From the human T2T-CHM13v2.0 reference genome, Homo sapiens, in NCBI RefSeq assembly GCF_009914755.1, contig NC_060936.1: DNA of 64,000 bases; one strand, 5' to 3'. Positions within the stretch are counted from its first letter, which is position 1. Every line of letters starts with the position of its first letter. Under the pieces are notes generated by a model that worked only from the letters and a program-made list of their open reading frames with translations, did no database searches and was not told the DNA's origin. Position numbers and translations under genes: made by a program. Positions 26,527 through 59,050 of this stretch are shown in pieces.

Positions 26527-26669
26527 GTTCCTAAGTGATATCCCAAGCTCTCAGATTCTCCAGGAAGAGATGACTTGGATGAAGGAGATTCTTTCCAACC
26601 TGGGCTCACCTGTTGTGCTTTGCCATAATGACCTATTGTGTAAGAATATAATCTACAATGAGAAACAAG
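26527..26669 (+). CDS. ETNK1: ETNK1 coding exon 4, Brenner phosphotransferase motif (CHNDLLCKNII)
   Basis: actaaaag acceptor, AAG|GTAGGT donor; 143 nt; frame continuous with exons 3 and 5. Confidence 0.96.
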
Positions 26670-31555: not shown

Positions 31556-34009
31556 GCCTCTACCTGCTCTCACCATGTCAGTTGACAGGACTCAGGACAT
31601 GGGAGAAGAGTGAGCTTCCTTTCTGAAGTTGATGGTAGCTGTCAAGATTTTTGAAAAGTTAGTGCCAGGAATTAGGTGATTGGTAAGCAGCGGCCCATTC
31701 CTTGCCTTCAGTGAAATGACATCCTGAAAAGGTAAGAAAAGAATACTTAATGATATGGTGATAGAATTTGATATATAATAAGGAAACCAAAAGCAGCAGT
31801 TCTTGCTCCAGAACTATAGGAATTATCAGTCATCTTTTAAATCAATCATTAATTTAATAGACTTTATATTAAGCAGAATAAATTGTAATATTGCCTATGA
31901 CTAACTTCAAATCTAATATTTTAATTTCAACTAATCATTTAACTACTGACATCAAGAAATTACTAAAGCTGTTGAGATTTCTATCTCATGTCTTGATGTT
32001 CTCTCAGAATGTTTATTGGTCTCATGACTTTTGGTGACTTTCATTTCTCCTCCTGTCCCCATTTCTTCATAAAAGCTCATGTAAATACCTAATATTTAAC
32101 TTTAAATTTCAGTAATGGCAATCACTGTTTATTTTCTCTGTCAGCACAATACAAGAAGCTGATTTACAGCTGTTTAAGGAAATACAAATGAGTGGAAGAA
32201 AAGGAAAGCTTTTTCTGGGAATTAAAGAGTAAATCAGGTTTTGTTTTATTTTGCTTTGTTTTAAGAGTTCTATACAATATAAATAGAAAATGGGTGAGTC
32301 CCCATAGTCACTTGTTTGGCTCTAAATCTTATCCATTCTATTATTACTCCTGAGAAAGCTTTGTAGTTGTCATGTTACTCATGTTTTAATGACTGAGAAG
32401 AGTTTTTTCATTGGTACTTTTTAAAAATTTAAATAAATACAAATTGATTTTTGTGTTTGGTAAACTATGTTTTCTAGGGTGGTGTTTTTAAATGTAGTTT
32501 AATTTTTAACTCTGTTTTAATTTGTATTCTCAACCACTAGTTAGCAGAAAATAAAATATCTGTAAGTCAGATAATAAAAAACTTAAATGAACTGTAAAAA
32601 CCTGAAGTTATGAAGAAAGAGTGACCTAATATAGGTACTAGTTTGTTTGTTTTTTCATTCATTCATTCTGGCCCACTGTGTTCAGTCTTGTACTTGAATA
32701 AAAATGTCAGAAACACCACACTTTTTTCTTTAGTTTTTCATGCTTTTTTGTCTTTTCCCCTCCCCCAGCAAATGTGTTATTGTGTGTCAGCATTTTCTGC
32801 AAACTTCATTTTTTCTACTAGCATTTAAATATTTCCTGTGTCCTAGGGATTGCTCTGTGGATTGCAGGATAAAAGAGGGAAGGGACCCTAGTGCCCCTCC
32901 AGGAGGCTGTGTATCTTGTAGTGGAGGAGTCCAATCACTGAACAGATACTTACATTTAGAATGATGAGTGCTCTGGTGAAGGGGTACAGAGTACTACAGG
33001 ACACCAGCGTGAAGATTAAAGGGAAAGTGTTTCAGACTAGAATACTCCCTGTCTTTTTCTGTATAAAATAGAAAACATTTTGCTAACATTAGTAGGATTA
33101 TAGTTACTTTTCGTATCGTTCTCTTCGAACCTGCCTAACATTGCAGAGCAAGTAGGGTGAGTTGGAAAGATTTTTCAGGTTCTCATATTGACTATTTTGC
33201 TTTTCATTTTTATTCCTTTCTCCTAACAACAAAATAAAGGAATTCAGACAAACATGTCATGTGATAATTATATAGCCTTGGGTAATACATTATTATTTTT
33301 TAGTTTTAAAGTACTTTAAAAATTGGCAGAGTATTTTTAGTATACTAAGATTTGAACAGTTTAACCAGTAGTGTCGGGATTTGATTACGCTGATAAAGAT
33401 ATGCAAGAAATAAAGTAATAAAAGACAAAATGTAGGTTTGGAAAATTCAAATTGTAGTTTTATCCATTAATCATATACTTTACTTTGTGCTTGTCATTGT
33501 GATAATTACATAAAGATAAATAAAATAACACACCTAGCCCTTAAAGTAGTAGTTCTTTACTTTTTAAAGGTCAGGGGTCCCTTGAGAATCTGAAAAATTG
33601 AGAATCTCTTCCTAAGAAAGTGCACATACACATAAAATTTTAGGGAATATTCTAGTTGTCTTTTCATCCTTGAAACCCCAATTAAAAATTCATGTCTTAA
33701 AGAACTGAGATGATGATCATGCTATATGAGCTAGTTAATTATTAATGCTGATGTGGATATTCGTTTAAATAAAGCGAAATTTTAGAAATCAGAAGTTAAA
33801 TTTATAGAAGGAAAAAGTATATTTTCTGTTGTTAGGAAAGCATTTTCCAGTAATTTGATTTTTCTGGCACCCTAACTAAGGGAAGTTGGCTTTTTAAATT
33901 TTACTTTGTTGCAGAAGATTAAATTTAAGGTTGAGTTCCACTTTGTTTGCAATAGTTTGAAAAAGAATAGTTAATGCAGATTTTTTTTTTAAATTTTTTT
34001 CCTTTTAAG

Positions 34010-34065
34010 CTTTGTGTCTTGTACAATGTGAGTTTGCCAAATTTTCTTCATCTGCTACAGATTAG
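34010..34065 (+). other. Candidate alternative cassette / poison (micro)exon complex in ETNK1 intron 4
   Basis: Acceptors at AG 34008-9 and AG 34059-60; donors AAT|GTGAGT (34028) and TAG|GTATGC (34066); in-frame TAG 34063-65. Confidence 0.55.
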
Positions 34066-35200
34066 GTATGCCATTGTTGCTGCCATGTGGCGGCGCACCC
34101 CGTGCTTCTTAAACGCACTGACTGGAGGTTTATCGCATCACTTGTTCACATGCACGGAGCCTGGTAACAGCCTCATCTGTATCTTGTTAGCTTCATTTTC
34201 TTATTTTTAAAATTTCATTATTTATAAACTCAACATAGCATTTAAAAATAAAGGCTAGTTTTAATTAATTAATGTTACTACAAAAAGTCATTGCTAAAAT
34301 TTTCATAGTGAAACAGATTTTAACTTTTGTTAAAATGTGCTATGCTTTAATTAAATTGTATTTACTCTACAAGCAGGGATGTTTTACCTGCCATTTTAAC
34401 TGTATTTGCCAAATTCTAAATATAATTTTGAAAATTGAAATTGAAGCTTATGTTTATGTGGCAAAAGTAAGCTTCAGGACTGGGCTGTGTATTTTTATTG
34501 GCATGTAACAGTTAATATGAGCTCTACAAGAATTTGTTTTTAAGGAGCTAAAGCTATCAACAGCTGCAGATTTAAAAAATTATATATTAAAACTGTTAGG
34601 TTAGCTCAGTTGTACAACTTAGTGAATCTTGTATCCTGAGTTTCTGAAGGCTGGTGGATAGGTATCTCTGAAATCATTGTGTTTTAGTCTTTTTACTGAT
34701 AGTTTTGTATAGGGAATTCATCTTCTCTTTTAAAATAACTTTTTTCCTTTAATTTATTTCTATTACTTATTGTACATAAATTTTAAAATAAAAAAATAAA
34801 AGAAAAAAAGTCACTTGTCTATCACCTGTTAATAGTTTAAACATTTTGGTTTATTTCCATTCATCCTTCCCCCCCATGCATTATTTACATATTTTTTTTT
34901 CTCTGTAGGCATATTTTAATTTGGATCACAGTTTACTACTTAGTATCTCCTTTTCATGACATTTGTAATTTCCCTGGTCATTATTTTTGAAAATGAGATT
35001 TCTTCATGGTTTTATTTCATTTTATTTTCATGCCTGTGAGTATTTTATCATGATGGTTGTCTTCACTCTCCTACTCCCAATGATTCCTAGAAAAGAAACT
35101 TTAAAACATGTTTCTACTTCCCATTCTGCAGTTTAGTAAAATGATTTGGTTAACTCTTAAAACTTTTTGTGGAATAATGTTCTGTGAATTCAAGTATACA

Positions 35201-35290
35201 AGGCAGGAGGATCACTTCAGGCCAGGAGTTCCATACCAGCTTGGGCAACATAGCAAGACCCCGTCTCTACAAAAAACAAAAAGAGAAAAA
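35201..35290 (+). mobile_element. Alu/FLAM fragment
   Basis: aggcaggaggatcactt...gaccccgtctctac + A tail. Confidence 0.75.
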
Positions 35291-36732
35291 AATATATAAT
35301 ACTTGAGGTAGTTGAATTGCCGTGATTTATTGTCACCAATATTTTTAAATCTTATATTTATTATAATAATACACATTACATTTTTATAACTGGGTTATAA
35401 CATTGATTATTCTCACTTATTCTAGATGTGACTTATTTAAATAAGTTTAGAATTATATATTAAATACAATTATATTAAAAACATTTTTGCTTTTATGTAA
35501 AACACTATTTGCCATGACATTTTTTGTCACGTAATTTTGTTTTTCTTTGTGTTTGAATATGATCAAATACTTCCCAAAATTAAACTTACAAATGTATATC
35601 AACATATTATAATTCAAAAGCTGTTTTTATTTGGGAAATAAATAACAATGTGTAAAGACCGGGAATTTGTTCTCCTACCTAAGCCTGATGATTAAAAGAC
35701 AGTGTAACTATGCAGGTGTTAAACATTTTCTATATTCTTACAGCCATCTCTGTTCATATATCCATTTTTAACTCCACGCCCCTGTAAGCCTTTGAGTTTG
35801 TGATCCCTGGTGAAGACAGTGACCCACATTGATTTTTTTTTTTTAAGGTTTCTCTCTCTCTTTTTTGCTTTTTCTCTCGAATATAGGACCTATATCTTTG
35901 TTAAGGCAAATCCTTTATAATATTCATTACTCAAAAGTTAAAAGTTCCTGAGTAGTAGTATGAAAGAACTAGATTATCTTTGGAGAGTTATAATGACATG
36001 CCTATATATGTAGCAGTAATTTAGAATAGGCATCTATTTAGCTTATGTGAAAATTTCTCACGTTTATAAACGTTAAAAGAAACCATACTTTTGCTTTTTG
36101 TAAGATAAAACCACCACCTTATTGCACCGTAATGCTGCTCAGATATGGAAACCTTGGTTAGGTAGTATTACAGGAAAATGTAAGCATATGATAACAACTA
36201 ACTTCTTGTTAGTGATCTTACATTGCTCAGCAAGTATAGCATTATTGCAAGATTTACAGAATTCAGGTCTTTAAAAGTTTATATTTTATTTCCATATGTA
36301 GATAAGCTTGTCAGTTTACTGTTGGAGTATCATAAAGTTTTTGTTAAAATTACACAGATTATTAGTAATTTCCAAAGATAAAAATTATGTTTCTAATTAA
36401 ACTTGAATTTTTAAGTAACTGATGCCCCCATGTGGCAAAGGATTTATTTTGCTTTTGCTTAAACTTGGAGAATGACTGTCTTTTCATTTTTCTTTAAAAA
36501 AGTGGACATTAGTGTTTATAAAGAAGCTGTTGACCAAGAGACATAATTTGAATTTTGTAAAGCTCATTGCCATAAAATTCACAGCCCCTTACCCTGTATT
36601 GTCTCACAAGTGCATGTAATCAAGCACGTACAATGAGACAAAATATTGGAAGCTATTTAATTACAAATAGCATAGGGATTTTCTGATCTTATATGTGATT
36701 TCTTAATGTCTTTGTTTTTGTGTCTCACATAG

Positions 36733-36816
36733 GTGATGTACAGTTCATTGATTATGAATATTCTGGATACAACTACCTGGCATATGATATTGGAAATCAT
36801 TTCAATGAATTTGCAG
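36733..36816 (+). CDS. ETNK1: ETNK1 coding exon 5, choline/ethanolamine kinase motif (IDYEYSGYNYLAYDIGNHFNEF)
   Basis: tgtctcacatag acceptor, CAG|GTATAA donor; 84 nt, phase 1-1; not in the ORF track, translated by hand. Confidence 0.97.
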
Positions 36817-57739: not shown

Positions 57740-59050
57740 TGTGTCCGAAATTGGTGGGTTCTTGGTCTCACTGACTTCAAGAATGAAGCCACGCACCTTT
57801 GCAGTGAGTGTTACAGTTCTTAAAGATGGTGTGTCCGGAGTTTGTTCCTTCTGATGTTCAGACGTGTTTGGAGTTCCTTCCTTCTGGTGAGTTCCTGGTC
57901 TCACCGGCTTCAGGAGTGAAGCAGCAGACCTTCCTGATGAGTGTCACAGCTCATAAATGCAGTGCATACCCAAAGAGTGAGCAGCAGCAAGATTTATTGC
58001 AAAGAGTGAAAGAACAAACCTTCCACAGTGTGGAAGGAGACCCAAGTGGGTTGTGGTTGCTGGCTCAGGCAGCCTGCTTTTATTCCCTTATCTGACTCCA
58101 CCCACATCCTGCTGACTGGTCCATTTTACAGAGAGCTGATTGGCCCATTTTACAGAGGTGATTGGTCCGTTTTGACAGGGTGCTGATTGGTGTGTTTACA
58201 AACCTTGAGCTAGACACAGTGCTGATTGATGCATTTACAATCCTTTAGCTAGACACAAAAGTTCTCCAAGTCCCTACTAGATTGGCTAGACACATAGCAC
58301 TGATTGGTGTGTTTACAAACTTTGAGCTAGACACAGAGTGCCGATTGGTGCATTTACAAACCTTGAGCTAGGCATAAAAGTTCTCCAAGTCCCCACACAA
58401 CTCAGGAGCCCAGCTGGCTTTGCCTAGTGGATGCCGCGCTGGGGCTGCCTGCAGAGTTGCCCGCCAGTCCTATGGCACGCACCCACACTCCTCAGCCCTT
58501 GGGCGGTGGATGGGACTGGACACTGCTGAGCAGGGGGCGGTGCCTGTCGGGGAGGCTCGGTCTGCGCGGGAGCCCACGGGGTTTGGGGTGGGGGAGGCTT
58601 GGGCGTGGTGGACTGGAGGTCCCGAGCCCTGCCCTGCGGAGAGGTGGCTGGAGGCCCGGCGAGAATTTGAGCATGGCGTGGGCAGGCTGGCAGTGCTGGG
58701 GGACCCAGCACACCCTCTGCAGCTGCTGGCCCGGGTGCTAAGCTCCTCACTGCCCAGGGCTGGCGGCGCTGGCCGGCGGCTCGGAGTGCGGGGCCCGCCG
58801 AGCCCATGCCCATCCGGAACTCGCGCTGGCCCGTGAGGGCCACGTGGGCCACACGCAGCCTGGGTTCCCACCAGTGCCTCTGCTTCCACACGTCCCGGCA
58901 AGCAGAGGGAGCCGGCTCCGGCCAGCCCAGAGAGGGGCTCCCACAGTGCAGCGGTGGCCTGAAGGGCTCCTCAAGCGCGGCCAGAGTGGGCACTGAGGCC
59001 AAGGAGGTGCCGAGAGCGAGCTAGGGCTGCCAGCATGCTGTCACCTCTCA
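57740..59050 (-). mobile_element. LTR12-family (ERV9) solo LTR
   Basis: tgtgtccgaaattggtggg ... gctgtcacctctca termini, tandem gctgattgg repeats, GC-rich U3; near-TSD ACAT/ATAT. Confidence 0.93.

What the first reader, a model, noticed from the sequence alone, without database searches (positions are those of the whole stretch)
34071..34196. CpG-retaining, YCAY-rich, potentially structured element immediately downstream of the poison donor
Seen: an abrupt GC-rich island in a very AT-rich, non-repeat intron, with six CpGs within ~70 bp. It has YCAY motifs at 34071, 34083, 34138, 34146, 34173 and 34193, and TGCACG at 34151. Possible helices: GCTGCC/GGCGGC hairpin (34079-34094); CCGTGC(34100-05)/GCACGG(34152-57), competing with local GCAC-CCC-GTGC (34095-34105); and GAGGTT(34125-30)/AGCCTC(34169-74), which crosses the former (pseudoknot-like). 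Established: downstream NOVA (YCAY) and RBFOX (GCAYG) sites promote inclusion, and metabolite-feedback splicing exists for SAT1, OGT and MAT2A. Inference (speculative): a regulatory RNA element tuning poison-exon inclusion, possibly in response to ethanolamine/phosphoethanolamine/PE status.
Basis: partly seen in the sequence, partly recalled or inferred. Interest (0 to 1): 0.75.

Follow-up and report, generated by a model that had tools for sequence, protein, structure and literature searches.

The report
ETNK1 conserved poison exon body
The GC-rich, CpG-keeping island is not an element behind a splice donor but the body of an already annotated 103-base "poison" exon of the ethanolamine kinase gene ETNK1, which puts a stop codon into the message and is kept in other species although it does not code for protein.

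Summary
34071-34196 lies almost wholly inside the RefSeq alternative exon 34061-34163: acceptor CAG|ATTAGG, donor CTG|GTAACA. Inserted between exons 26527-26669 and 36733-36816, it gives an in-frame TAG at 34063-34065, its second codon, 98 nt before the next junction. It is a textbook NMD cassette.

The same exon is catalogued as "NMD_in" in developing human forebrain. A 101-nt Etnk1 cassette is catalogued as cycloheximide-responsive in mouse, with flank PhastCons 0.973.

The GC/CpG island is real and matches the exon borders: GC 0.53 and CpG o/e 0.82, against 0.27/0.24 and 0 CpG in the 100-nt flanks. ORF translations from unnamed sources show near-identity plus frame-breaking indels, so the exon is conserved but non-coding.

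- **Structure:** not supported beyond one 6-bp hairpin.
- **YCAY:** not enriched over composition.
- **RBFOX:** the only GCAYG is exonic GCACG.
- **Ethanolamine link:** none found.

Verdict: an ordinary, already annotated poison exon, uncharacterised in main-text literature. Interest 0.3.

The parts
33992..34060 (+). Conserved upstream intron flank holding the polypyrimidine tract and the CAG acceptor of the cassette exon
   Evidence: The tract has 15 of 22 pyrimidines at -25..-4. P0004 is 34 of 36 identical to the human frame-0 translation across 33992-34099. The far more divergent P0007 is still alike over the last ~27 nt.
34061..34163 (+). 103-nt NMD-triggering cassette ('poison') exon of ETNK1, between constitutive exons 26527-26669 and 36733-36816
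   Evidence: Annotated in the hub's RefSeq table. Length is 103 nt, which is 1 mod 3, with an in-frame stop. Listed as hg38 chr12:22668597-22668700, NMD_in, with 143- and 84-nt flanking exons. P0002 equals the window 33974-34163 spliced to exons 5-8. GC 0.534, 6 CpG, o/e 0.82.
34063..34065 (+). In-frame TAG, the second codon of the cassette. It lies within a UAGG word and 98 nt upstream of the next exon junction.
   Evidence: The spliced translation stops one codon after the exon 4 junction. The distance is counted from the coordinates.
34066..34071 (+). Donor-like GTATGC, 5 nt inside the exon.
   Evidence: TAG|GTATGC matches 6 of 9 consensus positions, with a U1 duplex of -5.6 kcal/mol. No annotation or spliced ORF uses it as a donor. 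The NCBI tamarin model P0003 starts its exon at 34066.
34079..34094 (+). Local 6-bp hairpin GCUGCC-AUGU-GGCGGC, the only robustly predicted helix
   Evidence: Pair probability is 0.99 in a 280-nt context. For 34075-34110, z = -2.29 and 5 of 200 shuffles fold as well. In P0007 two Arg codons become Trp and Tyr, which would turn two G-C pairs into G-U. That fits either plain CpG decay or a kept stem.
34164..34184 (+). Weak donor GTAACA and the conserved first ~20 nt of the downstream intron
   Evidence: The U1 duplex is -5.0 kcal/mol, the weakest of the 7 annotated donors in the window (the others are -6.8 to -12.2). P0007 is 7 of 8 identical in frame 1 over 34161-34184, and P0005 runs on to 34204.

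Best explanation
34061-34163 is a conserved, non-coding, NMD-triggering cassette exon ('poison exon') of ETNK1. The finding's island is that exon's body plus its donor flank.

**Shown**
- When the exon is spliced in between exon 4 (which carries the HNDxxxxN catalytic loop) and exon 5, the reading frame meets TAG at the exon's second codon.
- That stop is 98 nt before the next junction, and three more junctions follow it.

**Inferred from the established 50-55 nt rule of EJC-dependent decay**
- The resulting mRNA is a substrate for nonsense-mediated decay.
- Each inclusion event therefore subtracts from productive ETNK1 mRNA.

**Inferred about how inclusion is set**
- Inclusion is limited by a weak donor (shown).
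- It probably depends on the exon body as a dense platform of splicing enhancers and silencers.
- The sharp GC step at both exon borders, in a 27-32% GC intron, would aid exon definition.
- The retained CpGs reflect base-by-base purifying selection on this regulatory RNA sequence, not protein coding and not a folded sensor.

The trans-acting factors are unknown. Published tables point to developmental control: inclusion falls as Etnk1 rises in mouse neuronal differentiation, and inclusion is dynamic in human forebrain.
For: **Anatomy**
- Splice-site contexts and the in-frame stop, together with the RefSeq exon in the hub table.
- P0002 (193 aa, 3 contigs of an unnamed source) is letter for letter the translation of 33974-34163 joined to exons 5-8, so the 34163 donor is used in real RNA.

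**Published catalogues (supplement rows and passages read)**
- JCI 2026, PMC13078869, Table S4a lists the exon as NMD_in with a model NMD score of 0.157, above the 0.131 cutoff. It is among 6,861 dynamic cassette exons of human forebrain, of which 785 are NMD_in.
- Genome Biol 2024, PMC11188260, Table S4 lists mouse Etnk1 chr6:143138587-143138687 as an NMD-stimulating cassette. It passes the cycloheximide cutoffs, has r = 0.581 between gene level and 1-PSI, and a flank PhastCons of 0.973.

**Conservation without coding**
- P0004 is 37/41 and then 19/21 identical to two different human frames. That implies a 2-nt deletion and a 101-nt exon.
- P0005 carries a second indel.
- P0007 is recognisably alike at the acceptor, the exon body and the donor.

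**Composition and splice sites**
- The GC/CpG step coincides with the exon borders.
- The donor is the weakest of the 7 annotated donors.
Against: - In human iPSC-derived neurons, cycloheximide did not raise inclusion: dPSI +0.020, P 0.318, FDR 1, with the gene log2FC near zero. NMD sensitivity of the human isoform is therefore predicted but not validated in that data set.
- The same table flags 'Cons.mouse.NMD' as 0.
- Orthology of the mouse 101-nt exon to the human one is inferred, from the length match with P0004 and from position. I could not read any mouse DNA.
- The sources of P0004, P0005 and P0007 are unknown, so the evolutionary depth is not quantified.
- No splicing factor is tied to the exon.
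- The main-text literature is silent on it: 0 papers hold both 'ETNK1' and 'poison exon'.
Confidence: 0.85

Rival explanations
1. One reading: a folded, possibly pseudoknotted RNA element that senses ethanolamine, phosphoethanolamine or PE status (directly or through a factor), with NOVA/RBFOX sites, and tunes poison-exon inclusion.
For: - The sequence is conserved although non-coding.
- One GC hairpin is robustly predicted.
- YCAY at 34173 lies in the deeply conserved donor flank.
- Metabolite-feedback splicing exists for other enzymes (SAT1, OGT, MAT2A; recalled, not checked here).
Against: - Fold energies equal those of shuffles: z = +0.69, +0.39 and -0.13.
- Helices H2, H2alt and H3 have pair probabilities of 0.08, 0.01 and 0.00.
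- H3 is broken on both arms in P0005.
- No Rfam match reaches its threshold. There are 6 chance-level hits at E 2-9.6, and none lies on the exon.
- YCAY is not enriched over composition.
- There is no GCAUG, and the GCACG is exonic.
- No paper title or abstract links ETNK1 splicing to ethanolamine.
Confidence: 0.04
2. The island is primarily a DNA-level element, such as a small unmethylated intragenic enhancer or promoter bound by transcription factors. Its CpGs would be kept by hypomethylation, and the exon annotation would be incidental or secondary.
For: - CpG o/e is 0.82, higher than in any coding exon in the window (at most 0.44).
- P0002 and P0004 derive from RNAs that carry the upstream intron contiguous with the exon. 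That could mean an intronic start site.
- The palindromic GCCAT...GGCGGC resembles YY1-type words (recalled motif, not tested).
Against: - The GC/CpG block stops exactly at the two splice sites.
- Conservation covers the polypyrimidine tract, the AG acceptor and the GTAACA donor.
- The hub table lists no RefSeq functional element here.
- Contiguous upstream intron is equally explained by partly spliced pre-mRNA.
Confidence: 0.07
3. An alternative coding exon: ATG 34085 is in frame with exons 5-8 and would start an N-terminally truncated ETNK1 of about 156 aa.
For: - Frame 0 of the exon is open for all 34 codons and runs into the normal downstream frame.
- The ATG has G at -3.
- The NCBI tamarin model P0003 reads the exon as coding.
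Against: - The indels in P0004 and P0005 shift the frame inside the exon.
- The Met is Leu in P0007.
- The product would lack the ATP-binding lobe and the HNDxxxxN catalytic loop, which is encoded in exon 4.
- An out-of-frame upstream ATG at 34068 opens a short ORF (read from the sequence).
- An open 34-codon frame in 53% GC sequence is expected by chance in about 1 case in 5 (my estimate).
Confidence: 0.03

Closest known systems
Conserved poison (NMD-stimulating cassette) exons, as catalogued in neuronal AS-NMD studies (PMC11188260, PMC13078869)
   Same: - A cassette exon with a frameshift and an early in-frame stop more than 50 nt from a junction.
- Highly conserved exon and intron flanks.
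- Inclusion that runs opposite to the host gene's level during differentiation (mouse table).
   Different: - The host is a metabolic kinase of the Kennedy pathway, not an RNA-binding protein.
- There is no known autoregulatory logic and no validated regulator.
- The human cycloheximide test in iNeurons was negative.
Ultraconserved poison exons of SR and hnRNP genes (Lareau 2007 and Ni 2007, seen only as references; Thomas 2020 not held)
   Same: - A non-coding exon conserved better than neighbouring coding exons would predict.
- CpGs are retained.
- Conservation extends into both splice-site flanks.
   Different: - Not ultraconserved in the strict sense. P0004 and P0005 show substitutions and 1-2 nt indels within about 170 nt.
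- The host gene does not encode a splicing factor, so feedback through its own protein binding the exon is not expected.
Metabolite-feedback unproductive splicing (SAT1 exon X, OGT detained intron, MAT2A detained intron; recalled)
   Same: An enzyme gene carries a conserved non-productive splicing option that could set its own output.
   Different: - There is no evidence here of any response to pathway metabolites.
- There is no sensor factor, such as METTL16 for MAT2A.
- There is no conserved structure comparable to the MAT2A hairpins.

Membership tests
Poison exon (NMD-triggering cassette exon) | Cassette exon with a functional acceptor and donor, seen spliced in RNA | tested here: met
   CAG|A acceptor and G|GTAACA donor. 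RefSeq exon in the hub table. P0002 joins 34163 to 36733 exactly. Listed as a cassette in human forebrain RNA-seq.
Poison exon (NMD-triggering cassette exon) | Inclusion introduces a premature stop more than 50-55 nt upstream of an exon junction | tested here: met
   TAG at 34063-34065 is in frame, 98 nt before the 34163 junction, with three further junctions downstream. The 103-nt length also shifts the frame.
Poison exon (NMD-triggering cassette exon) | Inclusion isoform rises when NMD or translation is blocked | tested here: inconclusive
   The mouse Etnk1 cassette is in a table restricted to cycloheximide-responsive events (|dPSI| > 0.1, probability > 0.9). In human iNeurons dPSI was +0.020 with FDR 1. 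Both are literature tables, not tests run here.
Poison exon (NMD-triggering cassette exon) | Cross-species conservation of the exon and its flanks | tested here: met
   Mouse flank PhastCons is 0.973. P0004, P0005 and P0007 from unnamed sources and tamarin P0003 match translations of 33974-34204. No DNA alignment was possible, and the species of three of these sources are unknown.
Ultraconserved element (at least 200 bp, 100% human-rodent identity) | Perfect identity over 200 bp | tested here: not met
   P0004 and P0005 differ from human by several residues and by frame-shifting indels within about 170-230 nt. This holds whatever their species.
Structured cis-regulatory RNA / riboswitch-like sensor | Fold more stable than composition predicts, or a match to a curated RNA family | tested here: not met
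   z = +0.69, +0.39 and -0.13. No Rfam match is near its gathering score. Only a 6-bp hairpin is robust.
Structured cis-regulatory RNA / riboswitch-like sensor | Compensatory base changes supporting the helices | not testable with these tools
   No vertebrate DNA was available. Peptide-level inference shows H3 broken on both arms in P0005, and two one-sided C-to-U changes that keep H1 pairable in P0007.
NOVA-regulated exon (YCAY cluster) | YCAY cluster enriched over background, at an enhancer position downstream of the donor | tested here: not met
   6 YCAY against a shuffle mean of 3.58, and 6.9% of 2,000 shuffles reach 6. Four of the six are exonic. CLIP data were not available.
RBFOX-enhanced exon | (U)GCAUG in the downstream intron | tested here: not met
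   The only GCAYG in 33901-34300 is GCACG at 34152, inside the exon, 8 nt before the donor.

The most novel reading that the evidence does not exclude
The exon body is kept base by base, CpGs included, in distant species even though only its second codon matters for decay. It could be the receiver of a homeostatic signal that matches ETNK1 output to membrane phosphatidylethanolamine or ethanolamine supply. That would be a Kennedy-pathway counterpart of the SAT1, OGT and MAT2A feedback splicing circuits, acting through an as yet unknown RNA-binding factor at the weak donor and its conserved flank.
Probability: 0.06. Interest if true: 0.75.

Novelty: already known. Interest (0 to 1): 0.3.

Why it matters
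ETNK1 is the first enzyme of the CDP-ethanolamine pathway and is recurrently mutated in atypical CML and related neoplasms (references seen). A conserved poison exon gives it a post-transcriptional throttle that no main-text paper held here discusses: 0 papers hold 'ETNK1' with 'poison exon', and nothing relevant turned up.

If the throttle works, the exon is a handle for raising ETNK1 with splice-switching oligonucleotides. Variants in 33992-34184 could also change ETNK1 dosage.

For the scan itself, the result is a correction. A sharp GC/CpG island in an AT-rich intron marked an exon, not an intronic sensor.

Tried and rejected
**Searches that found nothing**
- Rfam over 33000-35200 gave only chance-level hits.
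- A repeat or paralogue origin was not supported. The exon with its flanks is single copy in the assembly.
- The homologous ETNK2 intron (chr1, about 1.2 kb, mostly two Alu-like elements) has no similarity; the best E was 0.72.
- The chr4 processed ETNK1 pseudogene joins exons 4 and 5 without the cassette.

**Protein searches for coding use of the exon**
- Only P0002, tamarin P0003 and the short ORFs P0004, P0005 and P0007 appeared.
- P0006 (716 aa, tandem repeats, 34% identity, 7 stretches) I take as spurious.

**Literature**
- 'ETNK1' with 'poison exon' returned 0 papers.
- 'ETNK1' with nonsense-mediated/exon returned 7, and the two I opened were irrelevant.
- 'ETNK1' with alternative splicing/inclusion returned 14. 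One, on intronic polyadenylation, names ETNK1 only in a gene list.
- 'ETNK1' with UPF1 returned 3, listing only.
- 'ETNK1' with ethanolamine/feedback/mRNA returned 20, with 15 listed and none on splicing by title or abstract.
- The six-term search did not require ETNK1 and listed no paper that holds it.

**Supplements not seen or empty**
- Fair 2024 had no ETNK1 in the 2 readable files, and 1 file was unreadable.
- Weyn-Vanhentenryck 2018 had none in 12 of 15 files.
- The PLoS One 2010 .doc files were unreadable.
- Thomas 2020 is not held.
- File 13 of the Genome Biol paper was not searched.
- These unseen files could hold further rows on this exon.

**Other**

Full report
**1. What is in the sequence**

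- YCAY lies at 34071, 34083, 34138, 34146, 34173 and 34193.
- GCACG lies at 34152.
- CpGs lie at 34091, 34094, 34101, 34114, 34134 and 34155.
- Every helix arm reads as written.

The island is real. In 100-nt windows GC rises from 0.23-0.25 to 0.51 and falls back to 0.18.

The hub's annotation changes the anatomy, however. RefSeq places an alternative exon at 34061-34163. The sequence agrees with this. A pyrimidine-rich tract ends in CAG just before 34061, and the exon ends in CTG followed by GTAACA. So 93 of the finding's 126 bases are exon and the rest is the donor flank.

**2. What the exon does to the message**

I joined the annotated coding exons, with and without the cassette, and translated them. 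After exon 4 the reading frame takes one more codon and then meets TAG at 34063-34065.
- The exon is 103 nt, which is 1 mod 3, so the frame would be lost in any case.
- The stop lies 98 nt before the 34163 junction, and three further junctions follow.
- By the established 50-55 nt rule, the inclusion isoform is a predicted NMD substrate.

The exon interrupts the kinase between the HNDxxxxN loop, encoded in exon 4, and the DYEY-containing motif, encoded in exon 5 (read from the translation). The motif names are from my own knowledge.

**3. Evidence that the exon is used**

A protein search with the exon's translation returned P0002 (193 aa, 3 contigs of an unnamed source). P0002 is letter for letter the translation of window 33974-34163 joined to exons 5-8. 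The 34163 donor is therefore spliced to exon 5 in real RNA.

Two published supplementary tables list the event.
- **JCI 2026, PMC13078869, Table S4a.** It carries ETNK1 chr12:22668597-22668700 (hg38, 103 nt), flanked by a 143-nt and an 84-nt exon. These are the lengths of 26527-26669 and 36733-36816, and the intron distances match the window to within 1-2 nt. The exon is flagged NMD_in with a model NMD score of 0.157, above the 0.131 cutoff. It sits among 6,861 dynamic cassette exons of developing human forebrain, of which 785 are NMD_in.
- **Genome Biol 2024, PMC11188260, Table S4.** It lists mouse Etnk1 chr6:143138587-143138687 (GRCm39, 101 nt) as an NMD-stimulating cassette. The table is restricted to cycloheximide-responsive events whose NMD-protective splicing correlates with gene level. 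Here r = 0.581 between expression and 1-PSI, and the gene trend tau is +0.566. The PhastCons value of 0.973 is for the 100-nt intronic flanks on each side.

Two results run against this.
- In human iPSC-derived neurons cycloheximide changed inclusion by only +0.020 (P 0.318, FDR 1).
- The same table's 'Cons.mouse.NMD' flag is 0, meaning the exon was not among the events lifted over from that study's own mouse list.

**4. Is the island more than chance, and why is it there?**

The GC/CpG block coincides with the exon borders.

| Region | GC | CpG | CpG o/e |
|---|---|---|---|
| Cassette exon 34061-34163 | 0.534 | 6 | 0.82 |
| 100 nt upstream | 0.27 | 0 | 0 |
| 100 nt downstream | 0.24 | 0 | 0 |
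| Seven coding exons or exon parts in the window | 0.32-0.42 | 0-4 | at most 0.44 |

- Within the 10,063-nt intron (GC 0.317, 49 CpGs, o/e 0.20), only 0.7% of 994 windows reach 6 CpGs. The only windows with 4 or more lie here and in a masked repeat.
- The stretch is single copy. The same tool found 2,670 candidates for a CpG-rich stretch at 58450-58950, which shows that it does detect repeats.

**5. Conservation**

No vertebrate DNA collection was available, so I looked for ORF translations that cover the exon in the protein libraries.
- **P0004** (62 aa, 38 contigs, unnamed source) matches human frame 0 over 33974-34099 at 37/41. It then matches frame 2 over 34102-34164 at 19/21, and ends where the human sequence reads TGG then TAA across the unspliced donor. 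This implies a 2-nt deletion in the C-run near 34098-34101. That would make a 101-nt exon, the length of the published mouse exon. I did not and cannot establish its source.
- **P0005** (76 aa) carries the same shift plus a second indel near 34123, and runs on to 34204.
- **P0007** (73 aa) is far more divergent: 27/63 in frame 0. It is still alike at the acceptor and in the exon body, and is 7/8 identical in frame 1 over 34161-34184, which covers the donor and its first 20 intronic bases.
- **Tamarin P0003** is identical over 32 exon-derived residues. At primate distance this says little.

This pattern of near-identity with frame-breaking indels is the signature of a constrained non-coding sequence. 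It also removes the alternative-start reading. ATG 34085 is in frame with exons 5-8 in human, but the indels break that frame, and the Met is Leu in P0007.

Three Arg codons that hold CpGs (34091, 34094, 34114) are still Arg in P0004 and P0005. This suggests the CpGs are kept there (inference).

**6. Structure and motifs**

- **Fold energies.** They do not differ from dinucleotide shuffles. For 34071-34196, z = +0.69 and 152 of 200 shuffles fold as well. For the exon, z = +0.39 (126 of 200). For 34031-34180, z = -0.13 (92 of 200). On the minus strand z = +0.24 and -0.41.
- **Hairpin.** Only the small hairpin stands out: z = -2.29 for 34075-34110, with 5 of 200 shuffles folding as well.
- **Pair probabilities in a 280-nt context.** They are 0.99 for that hairpin, 0.08 for CCGUGC/GCACGG, 0.01 for the competing local stem and 0.00 for GAGGUU/AGCCUC.
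- **Helix H3.** P0005 implies changes at 34128 and 34173 that break GAGGUU/AGCCUC on both arms without compensation. Third codon positions are unseen, so this is inference.
- **YCAY.** There are 6 in 126 nt, against a shuffle mean of 3.58, and 6.9% of 2,000 shuffles reach 6. Across the window, 1.6% of 6,388 stretches reach 6. Four of the six are exonic.
- **RBFOX.** The only GCAYG within 33901-34300 is the exonic GCACG.
- **Rfam.** It gave six hits at E 2-9.6, all far below the gathering scores and none on the exon.

**7. How it most likely works**

- **Shown.** The exon has a good acceptor tract, with 15 of 22 pyrimidines. Its donor is the weakest of the window's seven annotated donors: the U1 duplex is -5.0 kcal/mol against -6.8 to -12.2.
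- **Inferred.** Inclusion is therefore conditional. It would be set by enhancer and silencer words packed into the conserved exon body and donor flank. The exon-intron GC step would help exon definition within a long AT-rich intron. The stop codon sits in a UAGG word, a classic hnRNP A1-type silencer (recalled).
- **Consequence.** Each inclusion yields a decay-prone mRNA, so the exon acts as a throttle on ETNK1. The mouse table suggests the throttle is released as neurons differentiate.
- **Unknown.** Which factors read the exon.

**8. Comparison and novelty**

This is a member of the well-known class of conserved poison exons. It is not ultraconserved in the strict sense, and its host gene is not a splicing factor.

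The exon is in RefSeq and in two published catalogues, so it is already known as an object. No main-text paper held here discusses it. The metabolite-feedback idea remains an untested speculation, to which I give about 6%.

Noticed in passing
window 32145-32637 (and 32145-32229): This second alternative exon in the same intron has a good acceptor and no GT after its end, so it looks like an alternative last exon (intronic polyadenylation). The NCBI tamarin model P0003 uses its first ~85 nt as an internal coding exon, with 1 mismatch to the human translation. One paper lists ETNK1 among genes with upregulated intronic polyadenylation in macrophages, but does not say which site.
   Followed up: partly
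window 58450-58950: This is the most CpG-dense stretch of the window, with up to 14 CpG per 100 nt, and lies 2.3 kb beyond the ETNK1 3' end. It is an interspersed repeat: 2,670 candidates, with the 39 other scored copies about 78-80% identical over ~490 bp. It is not a CpG-island promoter. The repeat family was not identified.
   Followed up: partly
G000:C4:147077967-147078188 (-): This is a processed ETNK1 pseudogene on chromosome 4. Exon 4 and exon 5 sequences abut (65-70% amino-acid identity), with one TAG inside and no cassette exon between them.
   Followed up: no
L002 (G000:C1:203404100-203405700, ETNK2 intron homologous to ETNK1 intron 4): The intron is only about 1.2 kb, with GC 0.51. 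It is largely two Alu-like elements plus a (GGAT)n run, and holds no counterpart of the ETNK1 cassette.
   Followed up: yes
window 33974-34207: A 78-codon ORF (P0001) runs from an ATG in the upstream T-rich tract, through the exon, into the downstream intron. It is why gene callers on unspliced RNA contigs emit peptides covering this exon, and it has no Pfam domain in the precomputed column. I judge it a chance ORF, because the indels in P0004 and P0005 break it.
   Followed up: yes
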